From: Candidatus Syntropharchaeum caldarium
GTDB lineage: Archaea > Halobacteriota > Syntropharchaeia > Syntropharchaeales > Syntropharchaeaceae
Length of the DNA stretch: 32,000 nt
Reading direction: 5' to 3'
NCBI GenBank assembly: GCA_001766815.1
Contig: LYOS01000001.1
Span: forward strand, 420,001 to 452,000
This document shows positions 3,014 to 32,000 of this stretch, one piece after another (within the stretch, counting starts at the first letter, position 1; every line of letters starts with the position of its first letter). The position numbers were made by a program, and so were the translations under genes. The notes beneath the pieces were generated by a model. It searched no databases. It saw only the letters and a list, made by a program, of their open reading frames with translations, and was not told the origin of the DNA.

Positions 3014-3076
3014 CAATTGGTGGTCCAGCAGATATGGTTAACAAAATTTTTAATAGCAATAAGAAGATTAAGTAGC

Positions 3077-4294
3077 ATGCTTGAAACGAACAAGAAGGCT
3101 GCCGCAAAGTTTGGGATAGACGTAGAGCTTATTGAAAAGAAGGTAGACACACAAAAGAATATTAGAATTTTGGGTAATGATTTGACCTTTATTGGTGTGA
3201 GAGAAAAGGATAGAACAAAGCACGTCCATCGTCTGCATCCATATCTTGGCAAATTTATCCCACAACTCGTAGAAGTATTTCTAAGAAAATATTTTAAAAA
3301 AGGAGATATAATACTTGATCCATTTTCAGGCTCAGGTACAACTTTAGTAGAGGCAAATGTTTTGGGAATGAACTCAATAGGTATAGAACTATCGCCCTTC
3401 AATATATTGATACAGAAGGTTAAGACGAAGAAATATGATATTCCAGAAGTGGAAATGGAGATTAAAGATGCGTTGAAAAGATTAAAAATCTTTAGTAAAC
3501 AGCTAACAGCAGGTGGGCAGACATTGTTTGGGAAGATAGAAAAGTTTGAAACCGATAGCGAATATCTAAAAGAATGGTTTTTCGATAGAGCACTGCAGGA
3601 AATTTTGTTTTACCAAAGTATAATAAATGATTACAAAAATCAGGATGTTCTAAAGATCATTCTCTCAAGGTCTGCCCGTTCAGCAAGACTTATACCTCAC
3701 TATGACTTAGCACGTCCAAAGAAACCAGTTAGGGAAACTTACTGGTGCATTAAACACAAGAGATATTGTGAACCTATTAATGAAGCTTTAAAATTCATAA
3801 GCCGCTACAGTTATGACACCATAAAACGACTGGAAGAATTTGACCGCATCCGAACTGATGCTTTTATCCGAATTTATCAAGGAGATGCACGGACGATTGA
3901 GTTGCCCGAGAACGGAGAAATAGATGGTATTTTTACATCTCCTCCTTATGTGGGAATTATCGATTATCACGAACAGCACAGGTATGCTTATGAATTATTT
4001 GATTTCCCAAGACTTGACGATTTAGAGATAGGTCCTGCCAGAAAAGGCCAGAATGGAAATGCCAAGAAAGAATACATGGAAGGAATAATAGAAGTCTTCA
4101 AAAATATGTCTAATTACCTCAAAGACGGTGCGTTGATTTTTATTGTGGCAAATGATAAATTTAATTTATATCCTGAAATTGGAAAACAGTGCAGCTTTGA
4201 GCTAATTGATGTTTTTAACAGGCCGGTTTTGATGAGAACTGAGAGAGATTCTAATAAGTATTTTGAGTCTATATTCTATTTCAAGAAGGTGTGA
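3077..4294 (+). CDS. DNA methyltransferase (N4-cytosine or N6-adenine), motif I before motif IV
   Basis: DPFSGSGTT (nt 3317-3343, AdoMet motif I) and TSPPY (nt 3935-3949, catalytic motif IV) are about 200 aa apart. The ATG at 3077 is preferred over the TTG at 3017, which abuts the attC-like core. Confidence 0.85.
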   Translation: MLETNKKAAAKFGIDVELIEKKVDTQKNIRILGNDLTFIGVREKDRTKHVHRLHPYLGKFIPQLVEVFLRKYFKKGDIILDPFSGSGTTLVEANVLGMNSIGIELSPFNILIQKVKTKKYDIPEVEMEIKDALKRLKIFSKQLTAGGQTLFGKIEKFETDSEYLKEWFFDRALQEILFYQSIINDYKNQDVLKIILSRSARSARLIPHYDLARPKKPVRETYWCIKHKRYCEPINEALKFISRYSYDTIKRLEEFDRIRTDAFIRIYQGDARTIELPENGEIDGIFTSPPYVGIIDYHEQHRYAYELFDFPRLDDLEIGPARKGQNGNAKKEYMEGIIEVFKNMSNYLKDGALIFIVANDKFNLYPEIGKQCSFELIDVFNRPVLMRTERDSNKYFESIFYFKKV

Positions 4295-5088
4295 ATATGG
4301 GTTTATCATCAAAAACAGCAAGCGAGATTGCTGAACTTCTTACTACTACAGTGAGAGAGAAATTGAGGAGGTATAAACCTGAAACGGTCAATATGCCTTT
4401 TCATCACAGGCTTCTTGGCAAAGACCGCTATGCAATGTTTTCTTTTATCCAATCAATGAATACTACTTTTGGAATTTCCATATGGGAACAGGTTGCTGTT
4501 ATTTTGGCTGAAGGTGCCGGCAATTATGCGGAGAGACAGTATAAATTGCTTGGGGAGATAGATGGTGAGACAGAAGAACTAATTCGGGAAATTCACTACA
4601 AACTGAGAAAGGGAGAAGCTACCGCAGACAAAATTTATGAAACAGAGCAGATTAGGAAAAAGATAAAAAGAGGAGAAGCAAAAACCGATCCAGATTCAGT
4701 GGTAGATTTGTTTGTAAGGATAAAGGACGAGGAAAACTACTTTGACATTACAAGTGCAAAGCCAAACATGAAGGAATTTGTGGCATTGAAGCTAAAACTT
4801 TTGAGATGGACGGCTTTAAGATTGAGCCAAGATAAGAACATCAAAGTTTTTACAAGACTTGCCATTCCCTATAATCCTTACCACCCAGAACCTTATGAGC
4901 GATGGACATTAAAGGGATTGTATGATCTGGAAAAAGGGGAAATTTTGGTTGGAGAAGAATTTTGGAATTTTGTTGCCTGTGATAACATCTATGACGAATT
5001 ATTGGATGTATTTCAGGAAGTCGGAGAAGAATTAAGAGATGAAATAGATGAAAAGTTTGCTGAGTTTAGAATAGGTGGAAAGGATTGA
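4291..5088 (+). CDS. Candidate type II restriction endonuclease (resembles the TdeIII family from memory; unverified)
   Basis: 265-aa ORF overlapping the methyltransferase stop by 4 nt (GTGA; alternative ATG at 4297). The N-terminal NMPFHHRLLGKDRYAMFSFIQSMNTTFGISIWEQVA and an acidic/lysine segment DLFV...FDITSAKPN are compatible with a PD-(D/E)xK-type nuclease. The assignment rests mainly on context. Confidence 0.5.
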   Translation: MNMGLSSKTASEIAELLTTTVREKLRRYKPETVNMPFHHRLLGKDRYAMFSFIQSMNTTFGISIWEQVAVILAEGAGNYAERQYKLLGEIDGETEELIREIHYKLRKGEATADKIYETEQIRKKIKRGEAKTDPDSVVDLFVRIKDEENYFDITSAKPNMKEFVALKLKLLRWTALRLSQDKNIKVFTRLAIPYNPYHPEPYERWTLKGLYDLEKGEILVGEEFWNFVACDNIYDELLDVFQEVGEELRDEIDEKFAEFRIGGKD

Positions 5089-9750: not shown

Positions 9751-11184
9751 TCATCTCTTTTTATAGTAGTACACCCCTATTCCTGCTGCAATTATCGCCA
9801 CAATCAATATCACGCCCACTAAAGTTGCGCCATTTCTCGAGGTCTTCGCAGGTGCAGGTGTCGTCGCGGTGGGACTCTTCTCCTGGACATTTGTCTCTTC
9901 CTCTGGATTTGTCTCGGTGAAATAATCTGCTGGTATTGCAGGACTCGTCTCAGGTAGCATCAGTGCAAAGGGTGTGAAGTGCTCAACCTTGGTGGTAGCC
10001 GTATGCGCAGTGGTATCTATCGTGGTATCAAGGGTGTTCCAGCTTCCGTTCTCATAGACCTTTATCACAAGGTCTTCTTCATCGGCATTCTCGGGAATAT
10101 CTGCTGGGTCATATCTGAACTCAAGCTCAATTGCAGGATCGAAGGTTGCACCGTTCGGTCCAAACTCGTATGCAATTATTGCACCCTCGAACGAAACCTC
10201 CACCATCGAGATATAGCTCACAGAACTACCAGATCTACTCGTTGCAACTGTCCCTTCCTCTATTGTAAGGCTCGCTTTTCCATCATCCGATCTGAGTATC
10301 GTTGTTGACTTCACCTTTCCGTAAATATCGATCGGGACGTTGGTGGTTGTACTGCTTCCGCCCCCTCCCCCACCACCAACTACCTGGTTCTGAGTGGATG
10401 TTGGTGTAGGCGTAGGTGTCGGTGTAGGTGTAGGTGTTGATGTGCCTGACACGGTTATCGTCTCTGATGCAGTAACTGATGCGGCGTTGTCTGCACTCAG
10501 CGTCACGGTAACGGTCTTTGTTCCTGAGGAGGTTGCGTTTAGGGTCCAGCCTGGTGTGAATATGGCATCAGCGGCGATCGATGTGGATGTTGTTCCAGAT
10601 GAATCTTCAACCGTGAACCCTGAGGCTGAGATCGAGGCTACCGCATTCTGGATTGCGTAATCTCCTGAGTTCTGGGTTGTTACGTTGAATGTGAACGTAT
10701 CTCCCAGATCAACAGCGGTTGTTGTTGTGATCGTTGGTGTTGTGAATCTTGCAGGATCTTTCACCGTGACGCTCTCATAAACAGGAGATCCTGTAATGTC
10801 TGTTCCGCTCTGCTTGACATTGATCTGGATCTGGTTGGCGTACGATCCAGCACTGAATCCATATATTGTCCATGATTTTGTTACAGAGTTGCCTGCAGAG
10901 ATTGTCTGTGACTCTGTCTGATCCTGCAGGTCTGTCGTTGTTGCATTGAGGCTCAATCCCCCATTTGCAGATGAAAGATCGATCTCAATTGTGACACCTG
11001 ACTGGGATGTGGTTCCGGTATTTGAGACCTGTACAGTCAGTGTGATGCTGCTTCCTGTTGTAATCTCACTGCTTGATGTCGATGTTGTTATTGTGAGCCC
11101 TGATGCTGCTGCAGGCAAACTACATGAAAATAAAAGGATCAGAACCCATGTTAGAACTGATATTACTTTCTTCATTGCGATCAA
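9751..11184 (-). CDS. Secreted, membrane-anchored surface protein with a PGF-pre-PGF domain
   Basis: Signal peptide, Thr/Ser-rich beta-repeat region, (TP)n linker plus a Gly7 run, and a segment ending HFTPFALM typical of PGF-pre-PGF domains. The C-terminus is a TM helix followed by KKR. Confidence 0.8.
   Translation of the reverse strand: MIAMKKVISVLTWVLILLFSCSLPAAASGLTITTSTSSSEITTGSSITLTVQVSNTGTTSQSGVTIEIDLSSANGGLSLNATTTDLQDQTESQTISAGNSVTKSWTIYGFSAGSYANQIQINVKQSGTDITGSPVYESVTVKDPARFTTPTITTTTAVDLGDTFTFNVTTQNSGDYAIQNAVASISASGFTVEDSSGTTSTSIAADAIFTPGWTLNATSSGTKTVTVTLSADNAASVTASETITVSGTSTPTPTPTPTPTPTSTQNQVVGGGGGGGSSTTTNVPIDIYGKVKSTTILRSDDGKASLTIEEGTVATSRSGSSVSYISMVEVSFEGAIIAYEFGPNGATFDPAIELEFRYDPADIPENADEEDLVIKVYENGSWNTLDTTIDTTAHTATTKVEHFTPFALMLPETSPAIPADYFTETNPEEETNVQEKSPTATTPAPAKTSRNGATLVGVILIVAIIAAGIGVYYYKKR
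10403..10436 (-). repeat. Hexanucleotide (GGTGTA-like) tandem repeat encoding the TPTPTPTPTPT linker
   Basis: ggtgtaggcgtaggtgtcggtgtaggtgtaggtg is visible directly. An adjacent C/G-rich run at 10358-10378 encodes GGGGGGG. Confidence 0.7.
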
Positions 11185-14100
11185 CTCCTAACCATAAAAG
11201 CTTTGGATGCAATTGCTATCGTTGAACTTGTATCGAGCCTGATGTAGTAGGTACCAGTCGCACCTGGTGTGTACTGGATGGTTGTATTCGATTGTGTGAC
11301 CGTATCTGACTCTACTATCTCACCTGTCTCGTTGAAGATCTTCAATGTCGTTGTATTTATCCCTTCATAGATCACGGTTATATTCACGGTCTCGTTCAAT
11401 GTGAAGGTCGTTGTGTTAGCGGTTGCGTTCTGAACGATTATCTCTGCATCGATATTCGAGTTCGTAACATCGATTGAACGTTCTTTTGCACCCATACTAC
11501 CATCCGCAGCTGTGACGATCGCTTTTATGCTGTATATCCCTGGTTGTGCCGTCTGTGGCAGATCGAGTGTGACCGATACCGGCATCGAGGTTGCTGTTGT
11601 CTCGTTGTAGTCAAGTATCCTGTGTGATGGGCTGAGCAGGAGAACTTCAACCTTTGCAGGTGTTGTAGCGCCGCCTGCTCCAATTGTCGTATTTATCGTG
11701 CTCCCTGCTGTTGTCTCATTGGCCGAGCTTATCGTAACATCGAAGCTCTTTACAAAGAACGGTACCCCTCCCCCGGCGACAGTTGATCCATCCGATGCGA
11801 TGACAAGGGCGAAGTACTCACCTGAGATGCCGTTTGAGGTATCGTAGGTTGCCGTGTAGTTACCTGTTGACTCATGGGTCACGTTGAGTTCGTACTCATC
11901 CCCGGGTCCAAATACGATCAGTTTGCCTGGTGTACCCATATCGGTCTGGAGGGTTACATCACAGGGTCCGGTTGAGTTTGTCACGTTTATCGTGAATTGG
12001 ACGGTGTCACTGGTTTGGTACTCAAACGCATCGGTTGTGATCGAGACTGAGAGATCGGTTATAAAGATCGGTATCTCCTCTATGCAGGACTCACCATTTC
12101 CTGATGCCTCTGCTTCTATGATGAAGGGCGGTGTTCCAACCATCCTCATATCCCGCATAGGAATTGAGGTGTTTCCTGTGAAGTTATCACTGTCAAGCGT
12201 GAAGTTGATCCAGCCTGTACCGTTCAGGATCGAGAGCCCGGTTCTTGTGATGCGTGGACCTGGTATACCCAACGCATCCCGTTCATCTTCTGGCATGAAG
12301 AGTTCCCATGGCATCCCGACCGAGAAATTGAGCGTGCCGTTTGAGACTGCGGTGCCGTTGAGGTTGGTCACGTAGACCGAAAGATTCACGCTATCGTTGA
12401 GTTTGTATGGTTCAAAGATATCTCTTTCTGAGAGGAACTTCATCTCGAGGTTGCCGAGGACTTCAAATTCTGTGAACTCAAAGGCAGACGGCTCCCCAAT
12501 GGTTGTATTAACGAGTATCACGATCAGCTCATAGAAGCCTGGATCCAGCCCTGTGGTATTATACGATCCTGTGTAGGTGGTCGATCCACTGATATTTATC
12601 GTGCTCATTGTCCCCTCGTCAGGATTCATCACTACCACTGTCCCATTCTTTCCATTCATCGCTGCAGTAATCCCTGCATCAAAGGGATCGCTGAATGAGA
12701 CGCTCGCATTGTGGTAGAAGTTGAGACCACTCACCGTGTTGCCAGACTGATTGGACACACTCACGGTTATGTTCACCGTATTTCCTTCGTAATACTCGTT
12801 GTGGTCGGTATCAACCTCGATCTCAAACTCAGGGACAAATGCAAACGCCTCTGCATAGGAGGTTGAACTGCCATTTGTTGCTGTAAGTGAGAATATGCAG
12901 GGACCTGTATTGCTTATCGTATAATTCAGCGTTGCTTTTCCGTTTGAATCGGTTGTAACAGGCGAAATAGATGTGTTGACATCCTCCCAGTTTCCCATCG
13001 GATTCCAGTGCACCGCAACCGTGATATTAGCCCCTGCGATCGGTGTTCCGTCAAACTCGGTTGTCTGCAGATATACTCTCACAAGGTCGTTCAGCCTGTA
13101 CTTTTCCTGGTCCGTGTATGCGGTGAACTTAAAGTCCTGTACCATGAGTGGCCTGTGATCTCTTGCATAGTGCGTATTGTTGGCGTTACCGGTGAATGTG
13201 AGGAAGTAGTTTCCTGAATGATCGGGTGCTGTGAACGTGATTGTTGTCTTCCCATCACTGCCTGTTGTGTTTGAGGCTTTTAGAACCTTCCACCACTGAT
13301 TATCGCCAGGATATGTTGCATAAAGATCGACCGTCATATTTGGGATCACATTTCCCGATAGATCTGTTGCCGTAACACGAACGTTTACAGTGCTTCCAGG
13401 TTCTGCTGTCATATCATTCATCCTGATCTCAAGCCTTGAATTTGTCAGGACAAAAGTTTGTCCACCCCGTATAAACTGTGAGTGTGTTCTATTTATTGCA
13501 TCCACGATGAGCATATATTCACCTGGGTTGAGTCCTGTTGATGGTATACTGATACCTGAGGAGGTTGTACCACTCATCATGAGTGTGGGCTTTGCAAGTT
13601 TGTCAGCTGAGTATGTGTAGACGTGGTATCTGTACTCATCGACTGCAAAACCATCTGGTATATTGAAGTTTGCAGTTATGTTATTTCCCTCGCTCACACG
13701 ATCATCCATAAACATGTACGAATTCTCAACGGCCGGCATCTGCGGGAGATCAACGGTGACATCCGAGCCGTTTATCGTGATATTTCGCGTAAACGCTGAG
13801 ACATTACCCCACATCTTGAAGACAAAGTCGTACGTCCCGTTTGGCAGGTAAACATCATCATAAAACCCGTATGGCTGGTTATACCCGGTGATTAATGTTA
13901 CAATGCTATCGTTAAACGGTGCGTGGTTGTTCGTTGCATTATTCCGTACCTCTATCGTCAGGCCCTGGGTGTTTCCTGAAAAGTTGAACGTGACGTTGTA
14001 GCCCTTTTCAAGCGTGGGTGATATCAAGGTCACGCCACCCTGGGTAAGTTCGCTCAGCCTGGAATAGTTTACAAAGTTTGTGCTGTTTTTAAAGACGATG

Positions 14101-15164
14101 TCCTCTGTGTCTGTCATTATCGATAGATTGTAGCTTCTCTGAGGCGAATAAGCTGTTGTGAAGTAGTACTGGCTCCAGGAAGCTGTGTCGTTGAGTGTTC
14201 CGTTATCAACCCTTGCGGATACGTTGAACGTGCTCTCATTACCCGCAAAGTACTGCCTGTCCATGACAAAACTTATGTTACTCCCGGAGATCGATGCAAT
14301 ACCTGTCTCGAGTGGTGAACCTCCCGCCGATAGATAACTCTCCCCTGTTGTACCGTTGTAGGAAGCGGTAAAATCTGGCATATCACCAAGACTTGTATTG
14401 ATTGATATCTGGTATTCGTAATCTGTTGAATTGGGAATTGATCCGTTTAACTGCAGCATGAGAAGAAGGCTCTCGTTGTTATCGCCTCCATAGACCTTCG
14501 TGAGGTTTGCATAATCTGGAAGTGTAGGATCTGGTAGGGTATCGGTGATATTCCATGTGGCGTTTGGTTCTGGAATGGACGCATTGCGGGTGTATGATGT
14601 GAATGTTGTATACTCACCAAAACCTGTTGAAATATCGTATTCATACTTTGTCGCCCTGATATCATTCTCGGATGATAGTGGGCTTTCCATCTGGATGCTT
14701 AAGTTTGCAGCAGGTCTCAGTGGGACATCCACGATGTTGTATGTGCTGTTTAGGTACGTGATATTGAAGTTCTGTACATCGTTCACGTCATAGCGACAAA
14801 TACTGTAGTTTAGAAACTGGATGCCAATGTTTGTTGAATGGGATGCATAATCCCTACCAGCTGTTGACTGGTTATCTCCGCCCAGGACGTACAGAAAATG
14901 ATACAGCGATGAACTGGCATTACTGTATAATACAACACCACTTGCAGATGAATTATTGAACTCATACTCTCCCTGATTCAGGTTATTTGAATCGTACTGT
15001 GTCGTGCCGTTTGCAAAGAATACTGTTGAGTTCGGGATTAAAGATCCTGTCGATGCATCTTTAACCCTTATCTCAAGCGTTGAAGCAGACGTGAACGGTA
15101 CACTCACCGAAATTACGACTGCAAGTACCAATACTAATGTCATTACTTTACTTTTTTTATTCAT
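11181..15164 (-). CDS. Large secreted cell-surface (S-layer-like) glycoprotein candidate, 1327 aa
   Basis: Signal peptide MNKKSKVMTLVLVLAVVISVSVPFTSA. There are at least ten N-x-S/T sequons in the first ~165 aa and many more throughout. Repeated Ig-like/bMG-like beta modules occur (LEIRVKDASTG..., LEIRMNDMTAEPGSTVNVRV...). The gene overlaps the downstream surface gene by 4 nt. Confidence 0.85.
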   Translation of the reverse strand: MNKKSKVMTLVLVLAVVISVSVPFTSASTLEIRVKDASTGSLIPNSTVFFANGTTQYDSNNLNQGEYEFNNSSASGVVLYSNASSSLYHFLYVLGGDNQSTAGRDYASHSTNIGIQFLNYSICRYDVNDVQNFNITYLNSTYNIVDVPLRPAANLSIQMESPLSSENDIRATKYEYDISTGFGEYTTFTSYTRNASIPEPNATWNITDTLPDPTLPDYANLTKVYGGDNNESLLLMLQLNGSIPNSTDYEYQISINTSLGDMPDFTASYNGTTGESYLSAGGSPLETGIASISGSNISFVMDRQYFAGNESTFNVSARVDNGTLNDTASWSQYYFTTAYSPQRSYNLSIMTDTEDIVFKNSTNFVNYSRLSELTQGGVTLISPTLEKGYNVTFNFSGNTQGLTIEVRNNATNNHAPFNDSIVTLITGYNQPYGFYDDVYLPNGTYDFVFKMWGNVSAFTRNITINGSDVTVDLPQMPAVENSYMFMDDRVSEGNNITANFNIPDGFAVDEYRYHVYTYSADKLAKPTLMMSGTTSSGISIPSTGLNPGEYMLIVDAINRTHSQFIRGGQTFVLTNSRLEIRMNDMTAEPGSTVNVRVTATDLSGNVIPNMTVDLYATYPGDNQWWKVLKASNTTGSDGKTTITFTAPDHSGNYFLTFTGNANNTHYARDHRPLMVQDFKFTAYTDQEKYRLNDLVRVYLQTTEFDGTPIAGANITVAVHWNPMGNWEDVNTSISPVTTDSNGKATLNYTISNTGPCIFSLTATNGSSTSYAEAFAFVPEFEIEVDTDHNEYYEGNTVNITVSVSNQSGNTVSGLNFYHNASVSFSDPFDAGITAAMNGKNGTVVVMNPDEGTMSTINISGSTTYTGSYNTTGLDPGFYELIVILVNTTIGEPSAFEFTEFEVLGNLEMKFLSERDIFEPYKLNDSVNLSVYVTNLNGTAVSNGTLNFSVGMPWELFMPEDERDALGIPGPRITRTGLSILNGTGWINFTLDSDNFTGNTSIPMRDMRMVGTPPFIIEAEASGNGESCIEEIPIFITDLSVSITTDAFEYQTSDTVQFTINVTNSTGPCDVTLQTDMGTPGKLIVFGPGDEYELNVTHESTGNYTATYDTSNGISGEYFALVIASDGSTVAGGGVPFFVKSFDVTISSANETTAGSTINTTIGAGGATTPAKVEVLLLSPSHRILDYNETTATSMPVSVTLDLPQTAQPGIYSIKAIVTAADGSMGAKERSIDVTNSNIDAEIIVQNATANTTTFTLNETVNITVIYEGINTTTLKIFNETGEIVESDTVTQSNTTIQYTPGATGTYYIRLDTSSTIAIASKAFMVRS

Positions 15165-15362: not shown

Positions 15363-16571
15363 ATGAAGTTGTTGAGGATTCAGGGCACACCTCTGGATGC
15401 AGAGAAGACGATACTCGTCATTGATCTGACGCATGGAGGTAGAACGCTTGGCAGGGCGATCGAACGTTACTCTACTGCAAGAGTTCTGCTCTATGATCTC
15501 TATGGAAAAGATAAGGGATCTGCGATACCAGACTTTGATCTCTGTATCTCTCCACTCCACTCACCTGTGATGAATCCCATCTTGTTGAGAGATGAGCGCG
15601 TGATCTCCCATCACCGTGCAACAGGAGATATTCTCAGGGAGTTTAAGAAGCATCTGGGCTGCAGGATCGTCGAGATCACCGGCACAAAGGGCAAGACATC
15701 GGTTGCAACACTGTTAAAGATGATGCTTGGTAGGGAGATGCGTGTGCTTTCACTGACAAGTCGTGGGGTCGAGTACACCACATGTTCCAATCATTCCAGA
15801 TTTCTAAGGAGAGATCTGAGCATCACACCCGCACACACACTTGAAGCAATGGCAATTGCAGAATCAGAAGGTCTTGAGGTCGATATTGCGCTCTTTGAAG
15901 TTTCACTCGGGTTTACAGGAGCCGCCGATCTCAATGTCCTGACCTCCCTCAGGGGTGACTACCCAATCGCAGGCGGCATGCTTAAAGCTTCTGATGCAAA
16001 GAAGTACACGATGACGGATCTTGATGGAGAGGTGGTGGAACTTGATGATTCAGGTGGTGCACTTCCCGGTGGCATGCGATTTGGCAGGCGACAGCAGGAT
16101 AATCTTAAGCTTGCAATCTACACGGCTGAAAAGCTCGGGGTGTCGGTAGACACGATCGAGGCTGTATCTGCTTCTTCTTCGCAGATTCCATCGAGGATGG
16201 AGATTATAGAAAACGGGGACTGGGTCGTTGTGGATGACTCAAACCCTGCTTTTGATGTTGAGAACTTAACTCAGGGGATTGAGGAGATCCTGGAGGTTGA
16301 AGGTGAACATATCGTCATTGTAGGCGGTTCATACCGTGGAAGCTGCTCAAAAGTAGATCTGGATGGAGTCAGACGTGTAATCGATAGATACAGTGGAAAA
16401 ATCAGGTTCTATCTCAGCGGTGAGATTGGACAGGATCTCATCAGAGCAGGGGCAGCATACCCATTTCTCGAGGGAGGGATTGATGCAATGGTCGATGATG
16501 TGCGAGAACGTTCGAATGGAAATAAAGGGGTTATACTTATCTCGCGGAAGCAGGAGGAGGGGTATAGATGA
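15363..16571 (+). CDS. cfbE: Coenzyme F430 synthetase CfbE (Mur-ligase family)
   Basis: Mur-ligase P-loop [10 protein letters not shown], about 400 aa, and an ATGA overlap with the NflD/CfbD-type gene downstream. Confidence 0.75.
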
Positions 16572-17668
16572 GTGAAGAATTGCTCTTTGAGGTGCTCCAT
16601 CCACGTCCAAGCGCGATCGCAGCCGCAATGTATACACTGCGAGATCTCGATGTCGATGCAATCCTTGCACATGGACCAACAGGCTGCAACTTCAGGACAA
16701 GTCGTATCCTTGAGGAGGATGGCGTGAAGGTATTTACGACATCGATGACCGAGTACGACTTTATATTTGGTGGAAGAGATCGGCTCATCAAAGTTTTGAA
16801 GCGAATTGATCAGGAGTTTGACTTCAGCCTCATCGGTGTTGTCGGAACGTGTGCCAGCATGATCATTGGAGAGGATATGGAGGGTGCGATCGAGGATGCA
16901 GAACTCGATATGGACGTGATCCTTGTTGAGACGCATGGTGGATATATCGAGAATACAAAAGGCGCAATCCAGACACTTGAAGCAGCATGCAGAAAAGGGC
17001 TGATCACCGAGGATGAACTTCTGCGACAGCAAAAAATTCTCCATGCCGCAACGAAGATTGAGGAAGAGCGGGGAATGGCGTCATCTGAGTACATCACGCC
17101 GCTTCGGGGGGATGATAAGTTCGAGGTTGCAAAGCAGATCATAGAGGAGGCAAGAGAAGCTGGCAGGCTCACAGTAATCCTCAACGCAAAGAAAGAGCTT
17201 GCATATATATTTTCAGATATCCTTCGCGCGTTGAATAAAGTCTTTTTGGATGAAAATGTTGAAGTCATCAATATCGCAAACCTCGATCCTGATATCGGAC
17301 TTCCAAGAATTAGAACTTATGCAAAAAACATCGTTGAAGAGCTTTCAACTGATGGTATCACAATCGATCATCTAACAGGTGGTCTGGATGAGTATGCCAT
17401 AAGTGGTGAACGTGCGTATAAACTGGCAGCGAAGATTACACCGGGGGTTGTGGTTGTACTTGGAAATCCCAATCCTGTTATGCCACACGATACCGCCACC
17501 AGTGTTGCAGTCACAAACGGTCCCAGAGAGGTTATACCACTTCGCGAGATGGGATATGATCATGTTGTTGTTGAACTTGATGCCCACTCGCTTGTCGTCG
17601 GCGTTTCAGGGATTGTCTGCTCTGAATTTGGAGATGTCATAAGAAAGGTGGTTGCTGATGCTGAGTGA
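16568..17668 (+). CDS. cfbD: Ni-sirohydrochlorin a,c-diamide reductive cyclase subunit CfbD (NifD/NflD-like)
   Basis: The N-terminus [31 protein letters not shown] and overall nitrogenase component-1-like organisation, at 366 aa, match the expected CfbD size. It lies adjacent to cfbE. Confidence 0.8.
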
Positions 17669-26916: not shown

Positions 26917-26989
26917 CGCCGCCAGGAGGACTCGAACCTCCGACATTCTGGTTAACAGCCAGACACTCTACCAACTGAGTTATAGCGGC
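26917..26989 (-). tRNA. tRNA-Asn (anticodon GTT)
   Basis: Hand-folded cloverleaf: acceptor GCCGCTA/TGGCGGC, D stem ACTC/GAGT, anticodon stem TCTGG/CCAGA with loop CTGTTAA, variable loop ATGTC, and T arm GGAGG-TTCGAGT-CCTCC. The discriminator is G and no CCA is encoded. Confidence 0.9.
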
Positions 26990-27095: not shown

Positions 27096-27560
27096 GCCCG
27101 ATCGAACCGCGGGATGCATAACCTGATCAATCATGTATGTCAGGAAGTTATTTTGAGCCCGATTTAAAATGTTATTTTGATGTTTTTCATGGTGTATGGT
27201 TGTTATGCACATACCCTCCATCTTTGATGTTGATTAAGTTTATATACATGAACATGAAGATAGAGGGATGTAAACCAAAGGTTGGTATAGAAGGTAGTAG
27301 CGGATGAGGCGAGGGAAAGGTGTTTCAAGCATTGTAAGATCCATGTCACGAGGTAATGAAGGGGTAGGTAAGATATGGCATGATACATCCTCTTTGATGA
27401 CCTTGAGTGGCTGGATCCTGCACGTGCTTAAATGCCATTTTTCACGCTGTTCATCCGTTACTTTACTTTTATATCAGCTTTTGGACAAACAAAACCTGTC
27501 ATAAGCACGCTTAGGTTAAGTGTGCTATGATAAAAATTGAGATAGGAGGTTTAAAAAGAT

Positions 27561-30500
27561 ATGAATAGTAGCAAGAGATTGCTAACAATAGTGATTGCAG
27601 CGATGATGGTTACAACCATCTTTACAGTGGCGCTGACACCGACGATGGCGCAGCCATCAGACGGCGACACAGGTCCAGGTCCGCTACTTGGTAGCAGTGA
27701 TGTCTGCAAGGACTCGATCAGGCTCTACGGAACCTTTGGCGAGGGCGCTGGAAATCAGAGTGCTGTAGATCCAGAGACCGGCTTACAACCAGAGAACAAG
27801 CCGTACACGGATCCAGAGGCACCGTTCTTCCCACAGCATCCACAGGCACCGGTGAAGGACTTCATGACCTTTGACCCCGCGATCATGGACCACAACCAGG
27901 GCTATGATGAGCTTGACTTCTACCTCTGTGAGAGTGGACTGCAGGTTCAGCGCCCACAGGAGAAGGTATTCAAGCGGATGTGGTATGAGAAGGAGTGGTT
28001 CAAGGACCGCGACCGGGACGGCGACTGGGATGTTGTAATCCAGACACCAACCGGACTTGAGGTAAGGACACTTGATGAGTGGAACGCAAAGCCTGAATGG
28101 GAGAAGGTACGTGACCGAGAGAGCATCGTCGAGTGGAACAACCCAGAAGATCCAGCCGCACCTGCTGGTCATGATGTCTGGGATGCAGACGCCTATGGTC
28201 CGGCGATCGTGCAGGAGTTCACCTACATGACGGTGGATGACTGGAGAATGCCGATCATGGTAGAGAACGGAAGCAAGCTTCTTATACCGATGGCACACGA
28301 CCCAGCAAGTCCGTACAGAGGCTTGAACAGCTTCGATGCAGACCTTGATGGAGAGCGTGATGTTGTTGCGGTTGAGAGCGAGGCAACACTCGGCATGGAT
28401 ATCGACCAGGATGGTATCATCGAGTCCATGAACCCCGATGGTATCCCACTCAACGGCAATGAGACGGTTGTCTTCACACTCAGGAAGTACATGAACGCAG
28501 GAGACACACTCCAGTTCTTCGACCACAAGGTTACACTCAAGGAGGTCTTCAGCGCTGCTGATAATGCGATCTTTGATGTCTGTGACAACGAGGGTGGCGG
28601 CAGTACAAACTGTGAAGTGGACGTTCCGATAGCAGAGGGTAACTACGTGCTCTTCTACCGCGGTGCGATGAGAAATGAAGGAACGACCTTCTACGTGAAG
28701 CTGATACAGGCTGATTCAGGTGATGAGAAAGCGATCGTTGAGGTCGGACGAATGTTTGGTCAGACCCATGCAAACATAGGGGCTAACCTCTACTGGAACC
28801 AGAAAGCATTCATCGTGGATGAGGTACTCTACAGCGTGGCTGCGATCATGACAGGACCTATAGGTGAAGAGAACGGCGACTGCTTCAAGTACATCACGAT
28901 CCGCGAGAAGCTTCCAAAGCTCCCGATCAAGATCTATGGCAAGCATCTTGAGGTATGGGACATTGGTGAGATGCTTCCAGAGATGGCACCGTTCTGTGAG
29001 CCACACGAGGTGCTCGTTGATGTGCTGCCATACCAGTTCATACCACAGGATCAGCAGGATAAGATCGGTGAGAAAGAGCCAAGACCACCACTTAACATCA
29101 CGTACGACGAAGAGGATATCGAAGAGCGGTTCACAGGATCACTGCTTGAGATACTGGATGAGCCATATAAGCTTGGTCCGAACCGCATGGTTGACTCACT
29201 TGAACTCGATGATGAACAGTGGATGGTTGAGTGGTTCCACACATACCCAGAGCAGTACACAAACTTCATCATACCACCACAGGAGAGGGTACTTGTAACA
29301 CTCTCATGGAGGGCATGTGAGGCAGAGACAACGATCTGGGATAGTGATCCATATGAGCCAATCGATACCAAGTCAGGCGACCGTTTGAAGTTCTGGTACG
29401 AGGACTGCACAGGACACCTCTACGTCAATGAGAGCGACTCCTCGATCAGGCTCTACGGAACCTTCGGCGAGGGCGCCGGAGATCAATCCATACCCTGTGA
29501 GAACAAGCCGTACACGGATCCTGAGGCACCGTTCTTCCCGCAGCACCCACAGGCACCGGTGAAGGACTTCATGACCTTCAACCCCGCGATCATGGACCAC
29601 AACCAGGGCTATGATGAGCTTGACTACTACCTCTGTGAGGACGGACTGCAGGTTCAGCGCCCACAGGAGAAGGTATTCAAGCGGATGTGGTATGAGAAGG
29701 AGTGGTTCAAGGACCGCGACCGGGACGGCGACTGGGATGTTGTAATCCAGACACCAACCGGACTTGAGGTAAGGACACTTGATGAGTGGAACGCAAAGCC
29801 TGAATGGGAGAAGGTACGTGACCGAGAGAGCATCGTCGAGTGGAACAACCCAGAAGATCCAGCCGCACCTGAGGGTCACAATGTCTGGAATGCAGACACA
29901 TATGGTCCGGCGGTTGTGCAGGAGTTCACCTACATGACGGTGGATGACTGGAGAATGCCGATCATGGTTGATGCCGGAAGCAAGCTTCTTATACCGATGG
30001 CACACGACCCAGCAAGTCCGTACAGAGGCTTAAACAGCTTCGATGCAGATGGCGATGGCGCCCGTGATGCAGTGAGGGTTGAGAGTGAGAACACGCTCGG
30101 CATGGATATCGATCAGGATGGCGTGAATGAGTCCATGAACCCCGATGGTATTGCACTTAACGGCGATGAGACGGTTGTCTTCACACTCAGGAAGTACATG
30201 AACGAGGGAGACACACTCCAGTTCTTCGACCACAAGGTTACACTCAAGGAGGTCTTCAGCTATCCAGATGTTGCGATCCTTGATGTCTGTGACAACGAGG
30301 GTGGCAGCAGTACAAACTGTGAACAGGACGTTACGATAGCAGAGGGTAACTACGTGCTCTTCTACCGCGGTGCGATGAGAAATGAAGGAACGACCTTCTA
30401 CGTGAAGCTGATACAGGCTGATGCAAATGATAATAAGGCGATCGTTGAGGTCGGACGAATGTTTGGTCAGACCCATGCAAACATAGGGGCTAACCTCTAC

Positions 30501-31367
30501 TGGAACCAGAAAGCATTCATCGTGGATGGTGTCCTCTACAGCGTGGCTGCGATCATGACAGGACCTATCGGTACTTACGATGGTGACTGCTTCAAGTACA
30601 TCACGATCCGCGAGAAGCTTCCAAAGTTCCCGATCAAGATCTACGGCAAGCATCTCGATGTACTGGAGCCCTATGAGCTAATTCCAGAGCCAGCACCGTT
30701 CAGCGAGGATCACGAGGTGCTCGTTGATGTGCTGCCATACCAGTTCATACCACAGGATCAGCAGGATAAGATCGGCGATAAGATCGCACGACCACCACTC
30801 GAGATCTGGTACACCGAAGAGTCGATTGAGCCACGGTTCACAGGATCACTGCTTGAGATACTGGATGAGCCTGAGTGTCTCGGTCCGAACTTCATCCATA
30901 ACGACTACTGCTCGAGTCTTCTCAGCGAACAGTGGATGGTTGAGTGGTTCCACACATACCCAGAGCAGTACACAGCATTCGTGCTACCAGAGGGCGAACT
31001 CTACCTGATGACGCTTGCATGGTTTGCACCAGAGGCAGAGACAACGATCTGGGATAGTGATCCATATGAGCCAATCGTTACCAAGTCAGGCGACCGCGCG
31101 AAGTTCTGGTATGACCCAGCAGATCCGACGGATATCTATGTGACGAAGACAACTCAGACACCGCCACCGCCACCACCGACATGCAAAGGCGACTTCAACG
31201 ACGATGGCGTCATCAACTTCGATGACTTCGTGGAGTTTGCAGGAGCATACGGTTCTTCCAGTGGTGATCCCAACTACAACGCTCTCGGCGACTTCAACGA
31301 CGATGGCGTCATCAACTTCGATGACTTCGTGGAGTTTGCAGGCGTCTATGGCACATCCTGTCCGTGA
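27561..31367 (+). CDS. Secreted 1268-aa protein: two tandem ~570-aa modules of unknown function plus a Pro linker and a C-terminal dockerin
   Basis: A strong RBS AGGAGGT lies upstream and a signal peptide ends ...PTMAQP. The internal duplication and PPPPPP linker are visible. Two GDFNDDGVINFDDFVEFAG segments match the DxNxDGxIxxxD Ca-binding loops of dockerins. Confidence 0.9.
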   Translation: MNSSKRLLTIVIAAMMVTTIFTVALTPTMAQPSDGDTGPGPLLGSSDVCKDSIRLYGTFGEGAGNQSAVDPETGLQPENKPYTDPEAPFFPQHPQAPVKDFMTFDPAIMDHNQGYDELDFYLCESGLQVQRPQEKVFKRMWYEKEWFKDRDRDGDWDVVIQTPTGLEVRTLDEWNAKPEWEKVRDRESIVEWNNPEDPAAPAGHDVWDADAYGPAIVQEFTYMTVDDWRMPIMVENGSKLLIPMAHDPASPYRGLNSFDADLDGERDVVAVESEATLGMDIDQDGIIESMNPDGIPLNGNETVVFTLRKYMNAGDTLQFFDHKVTLKEVFSAADNAIFDVCDNEGGGSTNCEVDVPIAEGNYVLFYRGAMRNEGTTFYVKLIQADSGDEKAIVEVGRMFGQTHANIGANLYWNQKAFIVDEVLYSVAAIMTGPIGEENGDCFKYITIREKLPKLPIKIYGKHLEVWDIGEMLPEMAPFCEPHEVLVDVLPYQFIPQDQQDKIGEKEPRPPLNITYDEEDIEERFTGSLLEILDEPYKLGPNRMVDSLELDDEQWMVEWFHTYPEQYTNFIIPPQERVLVTLSWRACEAETTIWDSDPYEPIDTKSGDRLKFWYEDCTGHLYVNESDSSIRLYGTFGEGAGDQSIPCENKPYTDPEAPFFPQHPQAPVKDFMTFNPAIMDHNQGYDELDYYLCEDGLQVQRPQEKVFKRMWYEKEWFKDRDRDGDWDVVIQTPTGLEVRTLDEWNAKPEWEKVRDRESIVEWNNPEDPAAPEGHNVWNADTYGPAVVQEFTYMTVDDWRMPIMVDAGSKLLIPMAHDPASPYRGLNSFDADGDGARDAVRVESENTLGMDIDQDGVNESMNPDGIALNGDETVVFTLRKYMNEGDTLQFFDHKVTLKEVFSYPDVAILDVCDNEGGSSTNCEQDVTIAEGNYVLFYRGAMRNEGTTFYVKLIQADANDNKAIVEVGRMFGQTHANIGANLYWNQKAFIVDGVLYSVAAIMTGPIGTYDGDCFKYITIREKLPKFPIKIYGKHLDVLEPYELIPEPAPFSEDHEVLVDVLPYQFIPQDQQDKIGDKIARPPLEIWYTEESIEPRFTGSLLEILDEPECLGPNFIHNDYCSSLLSEQWMVEWFHTYPEQYTAFVLPEGELYLMTLAWFAPEAETTIWDSDPYEPIVTKSGDRAKFWYDPADPTDIYVTKTTQTPPPPPPTCKGDFNDDGVINFDDFVEFAGAYGSSSGDPNYNALGDFNDDGVINFDDFVEFAGVYGTSCP
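27714..31142 (+). repeat. Intragenic tandem duplication (unit 1 27714-29441, unit 2 29442-31142)
   Basis: The copy offset is 1728 nt at the start, 1707 nt after a 21-nt indel and 1713 nt after a 6-nt indel. For example, 27936-28164 is identical to 29643-29871 (229 nt). Confidence 0.95.
31188..31342 (+). repeat. Dockerin duplicated segment: 56-nt perfect direct repeat at a 99-nt spacing
   Basis: ggcgacttcaacgacgatggcgtcatcaacttcgatgacttcgtggagtttgcagg occurs at both 31188-31243 and 31287-31342. Confidence 0.9.
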
Positions 31368-31400
31368 AATGCGGACAGATGAGTTAATGAGGTGAAGACA

Positions 31401-32000
31401 ATGAAGGCAAGAATGACAGGGGCGGGCTTTGCAGCCCTCCTCTTAATATTTAGTCTCTTCGCAACCATTAGCGTGAGTACAGTCACAGCAGCAGGTCCTG
31501 AGGTCTATGTTAACCCAGCGTTAACTGAAGATCTCTGCCCGGGTGATACATTCACGGTCACGGTCGAGGTGGACTCCGACACATTCAACCTCAGAGCCGT
31601 TCAACTGGATCTGGTGTATGATACAACCAAATTCCAGGTAAACGGTGCTACTGTCGAGGATGATCTCTTTGGAGCAGGTAACTATCTGGATCTAAGCGAT
31701 CTCACAGACGACGGAGAGCTGAACCTCGCTATAGCCAGTACGAATCCACCCTACGGACCAGAATCTGGAACCCTTGTAACCGTAGAGTTTGAGGTGAAGG
31801 CCGGCGTTCCAGACAACACATACGCACTCGATCTGCAGAATGTCGTGCTCAAGGATGAGAACAACGATGACATTCCAGGTGTTACCGTAACCGACGGTGC
31901 GGCTGAGGTAGATTGTGGTGCACCACCAGCAGGTCCTGAGGTCTATGTTAACCCAGCGTTAACTGAAGATCTCTGCCCGGGTGATACATTCACGGTCACG
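31401..32000 (+). CDS. Cohesin-repeat (scaffoldin-like) secreted protein, 5' part (open at window end)
   Basis: Not in the ORF track because no stop is reached. ATG 31401 follows GGTGA. Signal peptide is MKARMTGAGFAALLLIFSLFATISVSTVTA. The module PEVYVNPA...DTFTVTVEVDSDTFNLRAVQLDLVYDTTKFQV...GTLVTVEFEVKAGVPDNTYALDLQNVVLKD has the cohesin pattern. A second module starts at 31929. Confidence 0.75.
   Translation, partial: MKARMTGAGFAALLLIFSLFATISVSTVTAAGPEVYVNPALTEDLCPGDTFTVTVEVDSDTFNLRAVQLDLVYDTTKFQVNGATVEDDLFGAGNYLDLSDLTDDGELNLAIASTNPPYGPESGTLVTVEFEVKAGVPDNTYALDLQNVVLKDENNDDIPGVTVTDGAAEVDCGAPPAGPEVYVNPALTEDLCPGDTFTVT
31491..32000 (+). repeat. Tandem cohesin-module repeat, period 438 nt
   Basis: The 72 nt gcaggtcctgaggtctatgttaacccagcg...ttcacggtcacg at 31491-31562 recur identically at 31929-32000, where the window ends. 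Confidence 0.8.

What the first reader, a model, noticed from the sequence alone, without database searches (positions are those of the whole stretch)
31140..32000. Adjacent dockerin and cohesin genes: a candidate archaeal cellulosome-style surface assembly system with novel cargo
The 1268-aa protein ends with a PPPPPP linker and two 22-residue segments, GDFNDDGVINFDDFVEFAG(A/V)YG, 33 aa apart. These are the duplicated EF-hand-like Ca-binding loop plus helix of a type I-like dockerin. The very next gene starts 34 nt later with its own signal peptide. It encodes at least two modules with the cohesin sequence pattern (…TFTVTVEVDSDTFNLRAVQLDLVYDTTKFQV…GTLVTVEFEVKAGVPDNTYALDLQNVVLKD…). Established: cohesin-dockerin pairs mediate Ca-dependent high-affinity assembly of multi-protein complexes, and such modules occur in some archaea without cellulolytic function. 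Inference: the duplicated cargo protein is displayed in multiple copies on a repeat-cohesin scaffold at the cell surface of an F430-using archaeon. The function of that assembly (envelope lattice, adhesion, partner contact) is unknown.
Basis: partly seen in the sequence, partly recalled or inferred. Interest (0 to 1): 0.75.

Follow-up and report, generated by a model that had tools for sequence, protein, structure and literature searches.

The report
Archaeal dockerin–cohesin surface-protein cassette
A large secreted protein of unknown fold ends in a true dockerin, and the next gene encodes a secreted protein with two cohesins, so this alkane/methane-type archaeon very probably clips a structural surface protein onto a scaffold the way cellulosomes are assembled; this kind of system is already known from related archaea, although this conserved gene cassette has not been described.

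Summary
ORF 27561-31367 (1268 aa) ends in a PPPPPP linker and a duplicated-segment dockerin. It matches the B. cellulosolvens dockerin 2y3n_B at E 2.3e-11, and the AF2 model superposes on it at 1.7 Å, TM 0.76. Thirty-three nucleotides later a gene starts with a signal peptide and a Pfam cohesin (55 bits against a 24.1 cut-off). A second cohesin starts just before the window ends.

A metagenome contig 99.6% identical to the window supplies the rest of that gene. It encodes 603 aa: two cohesins, an Ig domain and a conserved C-terminal domain, with no membrane anchor of its own. Two small membrane-anchored proteins follow.

The order cargo-dockerin, then cohesin scaffoldin, then small anchor protein recurs in at least 8 independent loci (Syntropharchaeales, Methanoperedens, Methanosarcinaceae). 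Cargo homologues with a different C-terminal module are followed by a different repeat module or by none, so the coupling modules co-vary.

The cargo body is a tandem ~575-aa all-β unit. It folds confidently but has no Pfam family and no convincing PDB match; the only hint is a weak hit to the Methanosarcina S-layer domain.

Dockerin/cohesin abundance in ANME archaea, including multi-cohesin proteins, is published. This is therefore a new variant of a known kind.

The parts
27561..31367 (+). Cargo gene, 1268 aa: signal peptide, two tandem ~575-aa all-beta units, Pro linker, dockerin. pI 4.2. GC3 is 0.62 against about 0.45 for neighbouring genes.
   Evidence: ORF list, composition, 109 homologues, AF2 pLDDT 92.4 / pTM 0.90
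27561..27659 (+). Signal peptide MNSSKRLLTIVIAAMMVTTIFTVALTPTMAQPS. It is identical to that of the paralogous or allelic cargo P0108 from a Syntropharchaeales MAG.
   Evidence: 95% nt identity of window 27451-27660 to L001 505-712
27702..29420 (+). Body repeat 1 (aa 48-620): A module of about 480 aa plus B module of about 75 aa
   Evidence: Internal alignment is 85% identical to repeat 2; DNA repeats D1, D2, D5, D6; insertion sites and B-A-B-A permutation in homologues
29421..31139 (+). Body repeat 2 (aa 621-1193): A plus B modules
31161..31178 (+). PPPPPP linker (aa 1201-1206)
   Evidence: modelled pLDDT <50 here, i.e. flexible
31182..31361 (+). Dockerin (aa 1208-1267): two 22-aa Ca-loop-plus-helix segments (31188-31253 and 31287-31352). 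It is bracketed by Cys1208 and Cys1267.
   Evidence: 2y3n_B at E 2.3e-11; Foldseek prob 1.00, TM 0.76, rmsd 1.7 A; Pfam Dockerin_1 17 bits, below the gathering score
31389..31395 (+). Shine-Dalgarno-like GAGGTGA, 5 nt before the scaffoldin ATG. The 33-nt gap suggests co-transcription.
   Evidence: read from the sequence
31401..32000 (+). 5' part of the scaffoldin gene, cut by the window end. The full product in L017 is 603 aa: signal peptide, 2 cohesins, Ig/Big_7-like domain, conserved C-terminal domain.
31494..31925 (+). Cohesin module 1 (aa ~32-175)
   Evidence: Pfam PF00963 at 55 bits, aa 47-170; 33% and 31% identity to the two cohesins of the Methanoperedens-type scaffoldin
31926..32000 (+). 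Start of cohesin module 2 (truncated by the window end)
   Evidence: 77-nt direct repeat, 99% identical, 438-nt spacing; complete in L017

Best explanation
This is the first two genes of a conserved archaeal cell-surface assembly cassette.

Gene 1 encodes a secreted, very acidic, all-beta protein built from two tandem ~575-aa units of a family with no Pfam model. It ends in a flexible Pro linker and a symmetric two-segment dockerin. Gene 2 is probably co-transcribed. It encodes a secreted bivalent scaffoldin: two cohesins, an Ig domain and a conserved C-terminal domain. Genes 3 and 4 lie just beyond the window and are seen in the 99.6%-identical contig. They encode small proteins with an N-terminal beta domain, a Thr/Pro-rich stalk and a C-terminal transmembrane anchor.

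Proposed mechanism:
- After Sec export, each cohesin binds one dockerin in a Ca2+-dependent way, so two copies of the large protein hang on one scaffoldin.
- The scaffoldin is held at the membrane indirectly, most likely through its C-terminal domain and the small anchored proteins.
- The dockerin can probably also bind PGF-CTERM-anchored single-cohesin proteins of the same cohesin subfamily.
- The large protein is most likely a structural or adhesive envelope component, not an enzyme.

Shown: the module identities, the gene order and its conservation, the co-variation of coupling modules, and the confident novel all-beta fold. Inferred: actual binding, Ca2+ dependence, the scaffoldin-to-anchor link, and the structural role.
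For: Module identity:
- Dockerin.
- Cohesin.
- Both modules find their best or only solved relatives in cellulosomal complexes. C. acetobutylicum 6kgc is hit on both sides: dockerin chain at E 1.8e-5, cohesin chain at E 0.0039.

Full scaffoldin and anchors come from L017, which is 99.58% identical to the window.

Conserved order cargo(dockerin), then 2-cohesin scaffoldin, then TM- or PGF-anchored small protein:
- L005
- L006/L024
- L008/L013, Ca. Methanoperedens BLZ2
- L018
- L012
- L021, L023, L025

Co-variation:
- L018 carries the divergent 'type 2' body with a canonical dockerin and is followed by cohesins.
- L001 and L002 carry the same type 2 body with a non-canonical C-terminal module. 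They are followed by five non-cohesin 'RTIP' modules on the same Ig-plus-C-terminal-domain base. hhalign of these modules against cohesin gives prob 0.8%.
- ANME-1-type homologues lack a canonical dockerin and have no cohesin gene downstream.

The same cohesin subfamily also occurs as anchor proteins (cohesin + Ser/Thr linker + PGF/TM: P0110, P0115, P0116, P0121) and as adaptor proteins (cohesin + dockerin: P0114, P0119, P0122).

A structural role is suggested by several points:
- No catalytic family is found in Pfam or NCBIfam.
- The fold is all-beta with DxDxDG-type loops.
- Accessory modules on the constant body vary: PKD, VWA, cytochrome c, cupredoxin.
- Chloroflexi homologues carry both a dockerin and a cohesin on one chain.
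- pI is 4.2 and codon usage is distinct.
Against: - No binding data exist, and cohesin-dockerin specificity cannot be read from sequence. ANME-type genomes carry tens of both modules (PMC5244752), so the true partner could be elsewhere.
- Pfam Dockerin_1 is below its gathering score for this protein.
- The scaffoldin has no recognisable anchor. Its link to the small TM proteins rests only on gene adjacency.
- The cargo fold has no informative structural neighbour, so a 'structural' role is argued mostly from absence of evidence for anything else.
- The number of cohesins (two) comes from a short-read contig that visibly collapsed the dockerin duplication. It may be an underestimate.
Confidence: 0.7

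Rival explanations
1. The (A-B)x2 protein is itself the main lattice-forming envelope protein (S-layer-type) of lineages that lack the DUF1608 S-layer domain. The dockerin-cohesin pair plus the small TM proteins form its non-covalent membrane tether, analogous to SlaA/SlaB. This is a more specific version of the best explanation.
For: - Tandem duplication of a large beta-rich unit parallels the tandem DUF1608 of Methanosarcina MA0829. The only PDB hit with notable probability in two independent Foldseek runs is 3u2g, the MA0829 DUF1608 domain (prob 0.85 and 0.69, E about 5e-3).
- The family occurs in ANME-1, Syntropharchaeales, Methanoperedens and Archaeoglobus.
- The ANME-1 S-layer protein is stated to be unidentified (PMC9012536 section 23).
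- The protein is acidic, the gene has distinct codon usage, and a long upstream region is conserved at 95%.
- Chloroflexi homologues with dockerin and cohesin on one chain could self-polymerise.
Against: - The Foldseek match is weak (TM 0.25, rmsd 16-17 A).
- There is no Pfam DUF1608 hit.
- Only 7 N-glycosylation sequons occur in 1268 aa. A second secreted 1327-aa protein in the same window has 73 sequons and a TM-anchored CARDB partner, and is at least as good an S-layer candidate.
- Methanoperedens has DUF1608-type S-layer proteins, according to PMC9012536.
- ANME-1 envelopes are attributed to sheath (SH) proteins of a different fold (PMC11576556).
- No expression data were found for any member.
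Confidence: 0.2
2. The two genes are neighbours but not partners. The dockerin docks onto other cohesins, such as PGF-CTERM-anchored single-cohesin proteins like P0110. The adjacent scaffoldin collects other dockerin proteins.
For: - Single-cohesin PGF-CTERM or TM proteins of the same cohesin subfamily exist. P0110 is 58% identical to the window cohesin.
- Many dockerin and cohesin genes per genome are reported in related archaea (PMC5244752, PMC9012536).
Against: - The adjacency is conserved across orders in at least 8 loci.
- The cargo C-terminal module and the scaffold repeat type are swapped jointly.
- The close similarity of P0110 to the window cohesins makes shared specificity likely, not exclusive specificity.
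Confidence: 0.07
3. The cargo is an enzyme or substrate-binding protein displayed as in a true cellulosome, for polymer degradation or nutrient capture. The novelty of its fold hides the active site.
For: - In ANME genomes, common dockerin cargos are solute-binding proteins (PMC9012536 section 32).
- The fold has no known relative, so an activity cannot be excluded.
Against: - No catalytic or binding family is detected in Pfam, NCBIfam or PDB searches.
- The scaffoldin has no carbohydrate-binding module.
- The invariant residues of the family are mostly Gly, Pro, Asp, Tyr, Trp and Phe, typical of a structural beta scaffold with Ca-binding loops.
Confidence: 0.03

Closest known systems
Non-cellulosomal cohesin/dockerin proteins of ANME and related archaea (Timmers et al. 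2017, PMC5244752; Chadwick et al. 2022, PMC9012536 section 32; the Archaeoglobus fulgidus modules cited there)
   Same: Same modules in the same kind of organism: an F430-dependent alkane/methane oxidiser of Halobacteriota. The proteins are secreted, no cellulolytic context is present, and scaffoldin-like multi-cohesin proteins occur. The role proposed in those papers is surface attachment or cell-cell contact.
   Different: Those papers list domain counts and architectures genome-wide. In the papers searched they do not describe this operon, this cargo family, the small anchored proteins, or the co-variation of coupling modules. No paper in the library names the Methanoperedens, Syntrophoarchaeum or Archaeoglobus members.
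Bacterial cellulosome (Clostridium / Bacteroides cellulosolvens scaffoldins; solved complexes 2y3n, 6kgc, 4fl4)
   Same: The dockerin is a two-segment F-hand module, 40% identical to the 2y3n_B dockerin in the 58-column structural alignment. The cohesin is the PF00963 beta-sandwich. Cohesins sit in tandem on a secreted scaffold. Anchor-type and adaptor-type cohesin proteins exist in the same subfamily.
   Different: There are no glycoside hydrolases, no CBM, and no SLH or sortase anchor. Only two cohesins are present. The cargo is a single conserved structural-looking protein encoded directly upstream of its scaffoldin. A conserved Cys pair brackets the dockerin.
Methanosarcina acetivorans S-layer protein MA0829 (tandem DUF1608; PDB 3u2g/3u2h)
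   Same: A secreted, acidic archaeal envelope protein built from a tandem duplication of a beta-rich unit. It gives a weak but repeatable Foldseek hit.
   Different: There is no sequence or Pfam similarity. The unit here is twice as large (~575 aa). MA0829 is tethered by its own C-terminal TM helix, whereas here the tether would be a dockerin-cohesin pair.
Two-component archaeal S-layers with a separate membrane stalk (Sulfolobales SlaA/SlaB; from my own knowledge, not tested here)
   Same: In concept, a large outer protein is held by a separately encoded membrane-anchored partner whose gene is adjacent.
   Different: The proteins are unrelated. The coupling here is by portable cohesin-dockerin modules through an intermediate bivalent scaffoldin.

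Membership tests
Dockerin (type I-like, Pfam PF00404) | Two tandem ~22-residue segments, each a 12-residue Ca2+-binding loop (D-x-[ND]-x-[DN]-G-x-[IV]-x-x-x-D) followed by an alpha-helix | tested here: met
   aa 1210-1231 and 1243-1264 both read GDFNDDGVINFDDFVEFAG.YG. AF2 gives helices right after each loop, with pLDDT 91-96.
Dockerin (type I-like, Pfam PF00404) | Score above the Pfam gathering threshold | tested here: not met
   16.3-17.3 bits against 22.9 on the isolated C-terminus, and no hit on the whole protein. Homologues P0026 (29.3 bits), P0101 (29.9 bits) and the L012 cargo (41.6 bits) pass.
Dockerin (type I-like, Pfam PF00404) | Sequence and fold similarity to experimentally solved dockerins | tested here: met
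   2y3n_B at E 2.3e-11 and other dockerins at E<=1.8e-4, ranked above EF-hand proteins. Foldseek gives prob 1.00, TM 0.76, rmsd 1.7 A.
Dockerin (type I-like, Pfam PF00404) | Ca2+-dependent high-affinity binding to a cohesin | not testable with these tools
   Needs recombinant proteins or at least a multimer prediction. Only indirect support is available, from synteny and co-variation.
Cohesin (Pfam PF00963) | Score above the Pfam gathering threshold over the full ~140-aa module | tested here: met
   55.0 bits against 24.1, profile positions 12-139 of 139. The full-length L017 protein scores 98.3 bits with two stretches.
Cohesin (Pfam PF00963) | Nine-stranded beta-sandwich fold | not tested
The only related evidence is sequence similarity to the solved cohesins 6kg8_A and 6kgc_A, E 0.0039.
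Cellulosome-type system | Scaffoldin with several cohesins | tested here: met
   Two cohesins in L017, L013, L018, L006 and L012. The copy number may be collapsed in short-read assemblies.
Cellulosome-type system | [quoted passage not shown] | tested here: not met
   No GH or CBM family is found in the cargo, the scaffoldin or their neighbours.
Cellulosome-type system | Recognisable cell-surface anchor on the scaffoldin (SLH, sortase signal, PGF-CTERM, TM) | tested here: not met
   The L017, L013 and L018 scaffoldins end in a soluble conserved domain. TM or PGF-CTERM anchors sit on the small proteins encoded next and on separate single-cohesin proteins.
DUF1608 S-layer domain (Methanosarcina MA0829 type) | Sequence or profile match to the DUF1608 S-layer domain (Pfam family, or solved chains 3u2g/3u2h) | tested here: not met
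   No such Pfam hit in the cargo or in six homologues. The family profile against PDB sequences does not find 3u2g or 3u2h.
DUF1608 S-layer domain (Methanosarcina MA0829 type) | Fold similarity to 3u2g | tested here: inconclusive
   Foldseek gives E about 5e-3, prob 0.85 and 0.69, TM 0.25-0.26, rmsd 16-17 A.

The most novel reading that the evidence does not exclude
The (A-B)x2 family is a previously unrecognised archaeal envelope-lattice (S-layer-type) protein of Syntropharchaeales, ANME-1, Methanoperedens and some Archaeoglobi. It is tethered to the membrane non-covalently through a dockerin-cohesin scaffoldin and small TM proteins. The cargo body and its coupling modules are exchanged as a cassette between near-identical flanks in closely related strains, giving surface variation, possibly under virus or partner pressure. 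In Methanoperedens the same chassis carries cytochrome c and cupredoxin modules, which would place redox centres in the outer layer.
Probability: 0.2. Interest if true: 0.8.

Novelty: new variant of a known kind. Interest (0 to 1): 0.5.

Why it matters
Syntrophic alkane- and methane-oxidising archaea depend on their cell surface for partner contact and extracellular electron transfer. Yet the envelope proteins of ANME-1 and Syntrophoarchaeum-type cells are largely unassigned (PMC9012536 section 23).

This locus gives a concrete, testable wiring diagram, where earlier work offered a domain census. It names one defined cargo, one bivalent scaffoldin, defined candidate anchors and a natural specificity control (the alternative C-terminal module paired with RTIP modules). 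An orthologous cassette exists in the cultivable enrichment organism Ca. Methanoperedens BLZ2.

The locus also adds a confidently folded, roughly 185-cluster protein family that has no Pfam model and no close solved structure.

Tried and rejected
- Exact-match searches for a 60-mer of the scaffoldin gene in genome contigs and metagenome contigs found nothing. The same locus was later found by protein pattern (L017); the contig is 99.58% identical to the window over the 714-nt overlap.
- Exact-product look-ups failed for the window cargo, P0110 and P0086.
- A word-indexed homologue search with the 200-aa scaffoldin fragment gave only 2 hits. A 4-sequence cohesin profile gave 14.
- Looked for a known fold for the cargo and found nothing usable: Foldseek against PDB twice and against BFVD once, and the family profile against PDB sequences. 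Only PKD and dockerin parts and a weak DUF1608 hit came up.
- Tested whether the 'RTIP' repeat modules of the alternative cassette are divergent cohesins. hhalign prob is 0.8%, so this was rejected.
- Tested a viral origin. Neither the cargo nor the cohesin has relatives in IMG/VR.
- Considered an EF-hand Ca sensor as an alternative to a dockerin. EF-hand Pfam models score 20-25 bits, below their cut-offs. Solved dockerins rank far higher than EF-hand proteins and the fold match is to a dockerin, so this was rejected.
- A six-frame motif scan found no other dockerin in the window.
- Literature searches for the accession numbers of family members returned nothing.
Full report
**1. Observation**

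ORF 27561..31367 (+) encodes a 1268-aa protein. It starts with a signal peptide. It then has two tandem units, aa 48-620 and 621-1193, that are 85% identical to each other over about 540 aa (DNA repeats). A PPPPPP linker follows (nt 31161-31178).

The last 60 residues contain two copies of GDFNDDGVINFDDFVEFAG(A/V)YG, 33 aa apart (nt 31188-31253 and 31287-31352). The first 56 nt of the two copies are identical (read from the two sequences printed).

Against PDB sequences the C-terminus hits the Bacteroides cellulosolvens Cel48 dockerin 2y3n_B at E 2.3e-11. Five more dockerins follow at E<=1.8e-4, all ranked above any EF-hand protein. Pfam Dockerin_1 reaches only 16-17 bits against a gathering score of 22.9, and several EF-hand models score 20-25 bits, also below their thresholds.

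An AF2 model of repeat 2 plus the dockerin has mean pLDDT 88.9, and 91-96 in the dockerin. The dockerin part superposes on 2y3n_B with Foldseek prob 1.00, TM 0.76 and rmsd 1.7 Å over 58 columns at 40% identity. The dockerin assignment therefore holds.

Thirty-three nucleotides after the stop, behind a GAGGTGA motif, an ORF starts at 31401. Its 200 residues inside the window comprise a signal peptide and a Pfam cohesin (55.0 bits, cut-off 24.1, aa 47-170). From aa 176 the beginning of the module is repeated; the 77-nt repeat is 99% identical at 438-nt spacing.

**2. The rest of the scaffoldin**

Exact 60-mer searches failed. A pattern search with a cohesin profile found JGI contig Ga0164310_10011927 (L017). 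It is 99.58% identical to window 31287-32000.

L017 gives the complete scaffoldin, 603 aa:
- signal peptide;
- two cohesins (Pfam 98.3 bits, two stretches);
- an Ig domain, Big_7 in the homologue P0111;
- a conserved ~160-aa C-terminal domain (…GWNLVSVP…CQGYWV…GWNMIGH…).

It has no TM helix or PGF-CTERM.

Two genes follow, encoding 234 and 306 aa. Each has a signal peptide, a shared ~100-aa beta domain, a Thr/Pro-rich stalk and a C-terminal TM helix with a basic tail. The second also has TSP3-like Ca-binding repeats.

L017's upstream cargo fragment shows a single dockerin segment. This is an assembly collapse, so repeat numbers from such contigs are minimum estimates.

**3. Organism**

- The window carries CfbD (TIGR03282, 458.8 bits) and a CfbE-like ligase, i.e. 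F430 biosynthesis.
- The cargo signal peptide is identical to that of P0108 from a Syntropharchaeales MAG.
- The closest cohesin protein is from Ca. Syntrophoarchaeum (P0110, 58% identity).

The source is most likely a Syntrophoarchaeum relative.

**4. The cargo family**

A word-indexed search found 109 homologues. An exhaustive phmmer search of 1.84 billion cluster representatives found 185 at E<=1e-3 and 83 at E<=1e-30. This is a small family.

Members come from Methanophagales/ANME-1, Methanoperedens, Syntropharchaeales, Archaeoglobus and Anaerolineae.

The unit splits into an A module (~480 aa) and a B module (~75 aa). Insertions such as VWA sit between A and B. Methanoperedens-type members are arranged B-A-B-A.

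Accessory modules on this constant body vary:
- N-terminal PKD or DUF7507;
- VWA;
- cytochrome c or cupredoxin;
- C-terminal canonical dockerins or shorter EF-hand-like modules.

Chloroflexi members carry both a dockerin and a cohesin on one chain.

No Pfam or NCBIfam family covers A or B.

AF2 on aa 45-1200 with 79 homologues gave pLDDT 92.4 and pTM 0.90, an almost purely beta structure. Foldseek found no PDB match at E<=1e-3. The only hit with appreciable probability, in both runs, is the DUF1608 S-layer domain of Methanosarcina MA0829 (3u2g). It scores E ~5e-3, prob 0.85 and 0.69, but TM only 0.25. BFVD gave nothing meaningful, and IMG/VR holds no relatives.

**5. Synteny and co-variation**

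I called ORFs in all fetched loci and searched them with the cargo, cohesin, C-terminal-domain, anchor and RTIP queries.

A cargo with a canonical dockerin is followed directly by a cohesin protein in these loci:
- the window and L017;
- L005;
- L006/L024;
- L008/L013, Ca. Methanoperedens BLZ2;
- L012, a Methanosarcinaceae MAG, with dockerin at 41.6 bits and cohesin at 38.9 bits;
- L018;
- L021, L023 and L025.

Where the contig continues, a small anchored protein follows. This is seen in L004, L006, L008, L013, L017, L019, L023 and L024.

The Methanoperedens-type scaffoldin cohesins are 31-33% identical to the window cohesin (E 2e-17 and 7e-16). Its C-terminal domain matches that of P0111 (E 8e-7).

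Cargo homologues with a non-canonical C-terminal module behave differently:
- L001 and L002 are followed by a protein with five ~110-aa Cys-rich 'RTIP' modules on the same Ig-plus-C-terminal-domain base. These modules are not cohesins (hhalign prob 0.8%).
- ANME-1-type loci L009 and L010 have no cohesin gene downstream.
- L011 has an RTIP-like PGF-CTERM protein about 1.1 kb downstream.

L018 combines the divergent 'type 2' body with a canonical dockerin and is followed by cohesins. The C-terminal module and the scaffold repeat type thus co-vary independently of the cargo body. This is the strongest computational argument available here for cognate pairing.

**6. Wider architecture**

The same cohesin subfamily also occurs in three other formats:
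- single cohesin + Ser/Thr linker + PGF-CTERM or TM anchor (P0110, P0115, P0116, P0121);
- cohesin + dockerin adaptor (P0114, P0119, P0122);
- a protein with three cohesins plus a dockerin (L020).

They mirror the anchoring, adaptor and primary scaffoldin roles of cellulosomes.

**7. Literature**

- High counts of dockerin and cohesin domains in ANME-1 and ANME-2a were reported in 2017 (PMC5244752: 149 dockerin and 80 cohesin InterPro hits in one ANME-1 genome).
- Chadwick et al. 2022 (PMC9012536, section 32) describe scaffoldin-like proteins with up to five cohesins, solute-binding-protein cargos, and S-layer-domain-plus-dockerin proteins in ANME-2c. They call for experimental pairing.
- The same paper states that ANME-1 has no identifiable S-layer domain protein (section 23).
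- Medvedeva et al. 2024 (PMC11576556) assign ANME-1 a sheath of unrelated SH proteins.
- No paper in the library mentions the accession numbers of this cargo family. Methanoperedens papers mention dockerins only generically.

**8. Verdict**

The general phenomenon is known. I did not find the following described:
- the conserved four-gene cassette;
- the large cargo family with no Pfam family and no close solved structure;
- the co-varying alternative coupling pair;
- the apparent cassette replacement between conserved flanks.

The function of the cargo remains inferred. I favour a structural or adhesive envelope component. The S-layer reading is possible but unproven, and it competes with another strong candidate in the same window (11181-15164, minus strand).

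Noticed in passing
window 27451-27660 and L017 1427-4452, compared with L001 505-712 and 5568-8595: A related Syntropharchaeales MAG (L001, GCA_054799455.1) shares the 5' UTR plus signal peptide (95% nt identity) and the 3' part (Ig domain, C-terminal domain, both anchor genes; 94.9% over 3033 nt) with this locus. Between these flanks it carries an unrelated cargo body (about 25% aa identity), a different C-terminal module and five non-cohesin modules. This looks like cassette replacement at one locus between close relatives.
   Followed up: partly
L001 3836-6412; L002 13233-15749; L011 10879-11640: A new ~110-aa Cys-rich repeat module (RTIPxxCVEPGENVTITI…ETICDGWT…CCxITGxFRD…GDSEVCTC) has no Pfam family and no cohesin similarity. 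It is present five times on the alternative scaffold and once on a PGF-CTERM protein next to an ANME-1-type cargo. It is a candidate receptor for the non-canonical EF-hand-like C-terminal modules.
   Followed up: partly
window 9751-15164 (- strand): A second surface-protein pair. A secreted 1327-aa protein (Ig-like Big_1/MG2/invasin hits, pI 4.3, 73 N-x-S/T sequons, no anchor) overlaps by 4 nt a 477-aa CARDB protein with a C-terminal TM helix. It is an alternative candidate for the glycosylated S-layer of this organism.
   Followed up: partly
window 15363-17668 (+): F430 biosynthesis genes. A CfbE-like ligase scores 242 bits, just under the 250 cut-off. CfbD (TIGR03282) scores 458.8 bits. The two ORFs overlap by 4 nt.
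   Followed up: yes
L006 8001-15941; L023; L024; P0026, P0036, P0045, P0053: In Methanoperedens-type cassettes the cargo carries a cytochrome c (PF13442) or cupredoxin module before the dockerin. The scaffoldin carries two CxxCH motifs and a cupredoxin domain before its cohesins. Redox modules are thus mounted on the same surface chassis, which may be relevant to extracellular electron transfer.
   Followed up: partly
P0095, P0101 (Chloroflexi/Anaerolineae): Bacterial homologues of the (A-B)x2 body carry a dockerin and a cohesin on the same polypeptide. This would allow head-to-tail self-polymerisation.
   Followed up: no
window 31182-31184 and 31359-31361; 31536-31538 and 31914-31916: Conserved Cys pairs bracket the dockerin (C1208/C1267; also present in P0001, P0026, P0035, P0051 and P0072) and the cohesin module (C46/C172). 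They may be disulfide clamps. NCBIfam 'dockerin_GC' scores 16.7 bits, below its cut-off.
   Followed up: no
window 27561-31367: The cargo gene has GC3 of 0.62 and Nc of 45.7, against GC3 of about 0.45 and Nc of about 50 for most other genes in the window. This is compatible with high expression or with foreign origin.
   Followed up: no
window 3017-5088: A low-GC stretch (0.36-0.38 against about 0.46) encodes an N6/N4 DNA methylase-like protein and an unknown ORF. It may be a mobile or restriction-modification island.
   Followed up: no
window 26917-26989 (- strand): A tRNA-Asn(GTT) gene lies in the 660-nt gap between trpA and the cargo gene.
   Followed up: no
L017 46-435: The short-read metagenome contig collapses the two body repeats and shows only one dockerin segment. 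Repeat numbers in such assemblies, including the count of two cohesins, should be treated as minimum values.
   Followed up: partly
L008 4479-4784; L009 6628-7406: An HTH_45 regulator gene lies just upstream of the cargo gene in both a Methanoperedens locus and an ANME-1 locus. It may be a conserved regulator. No equivalent was looked for in the window.
   Followed up: no
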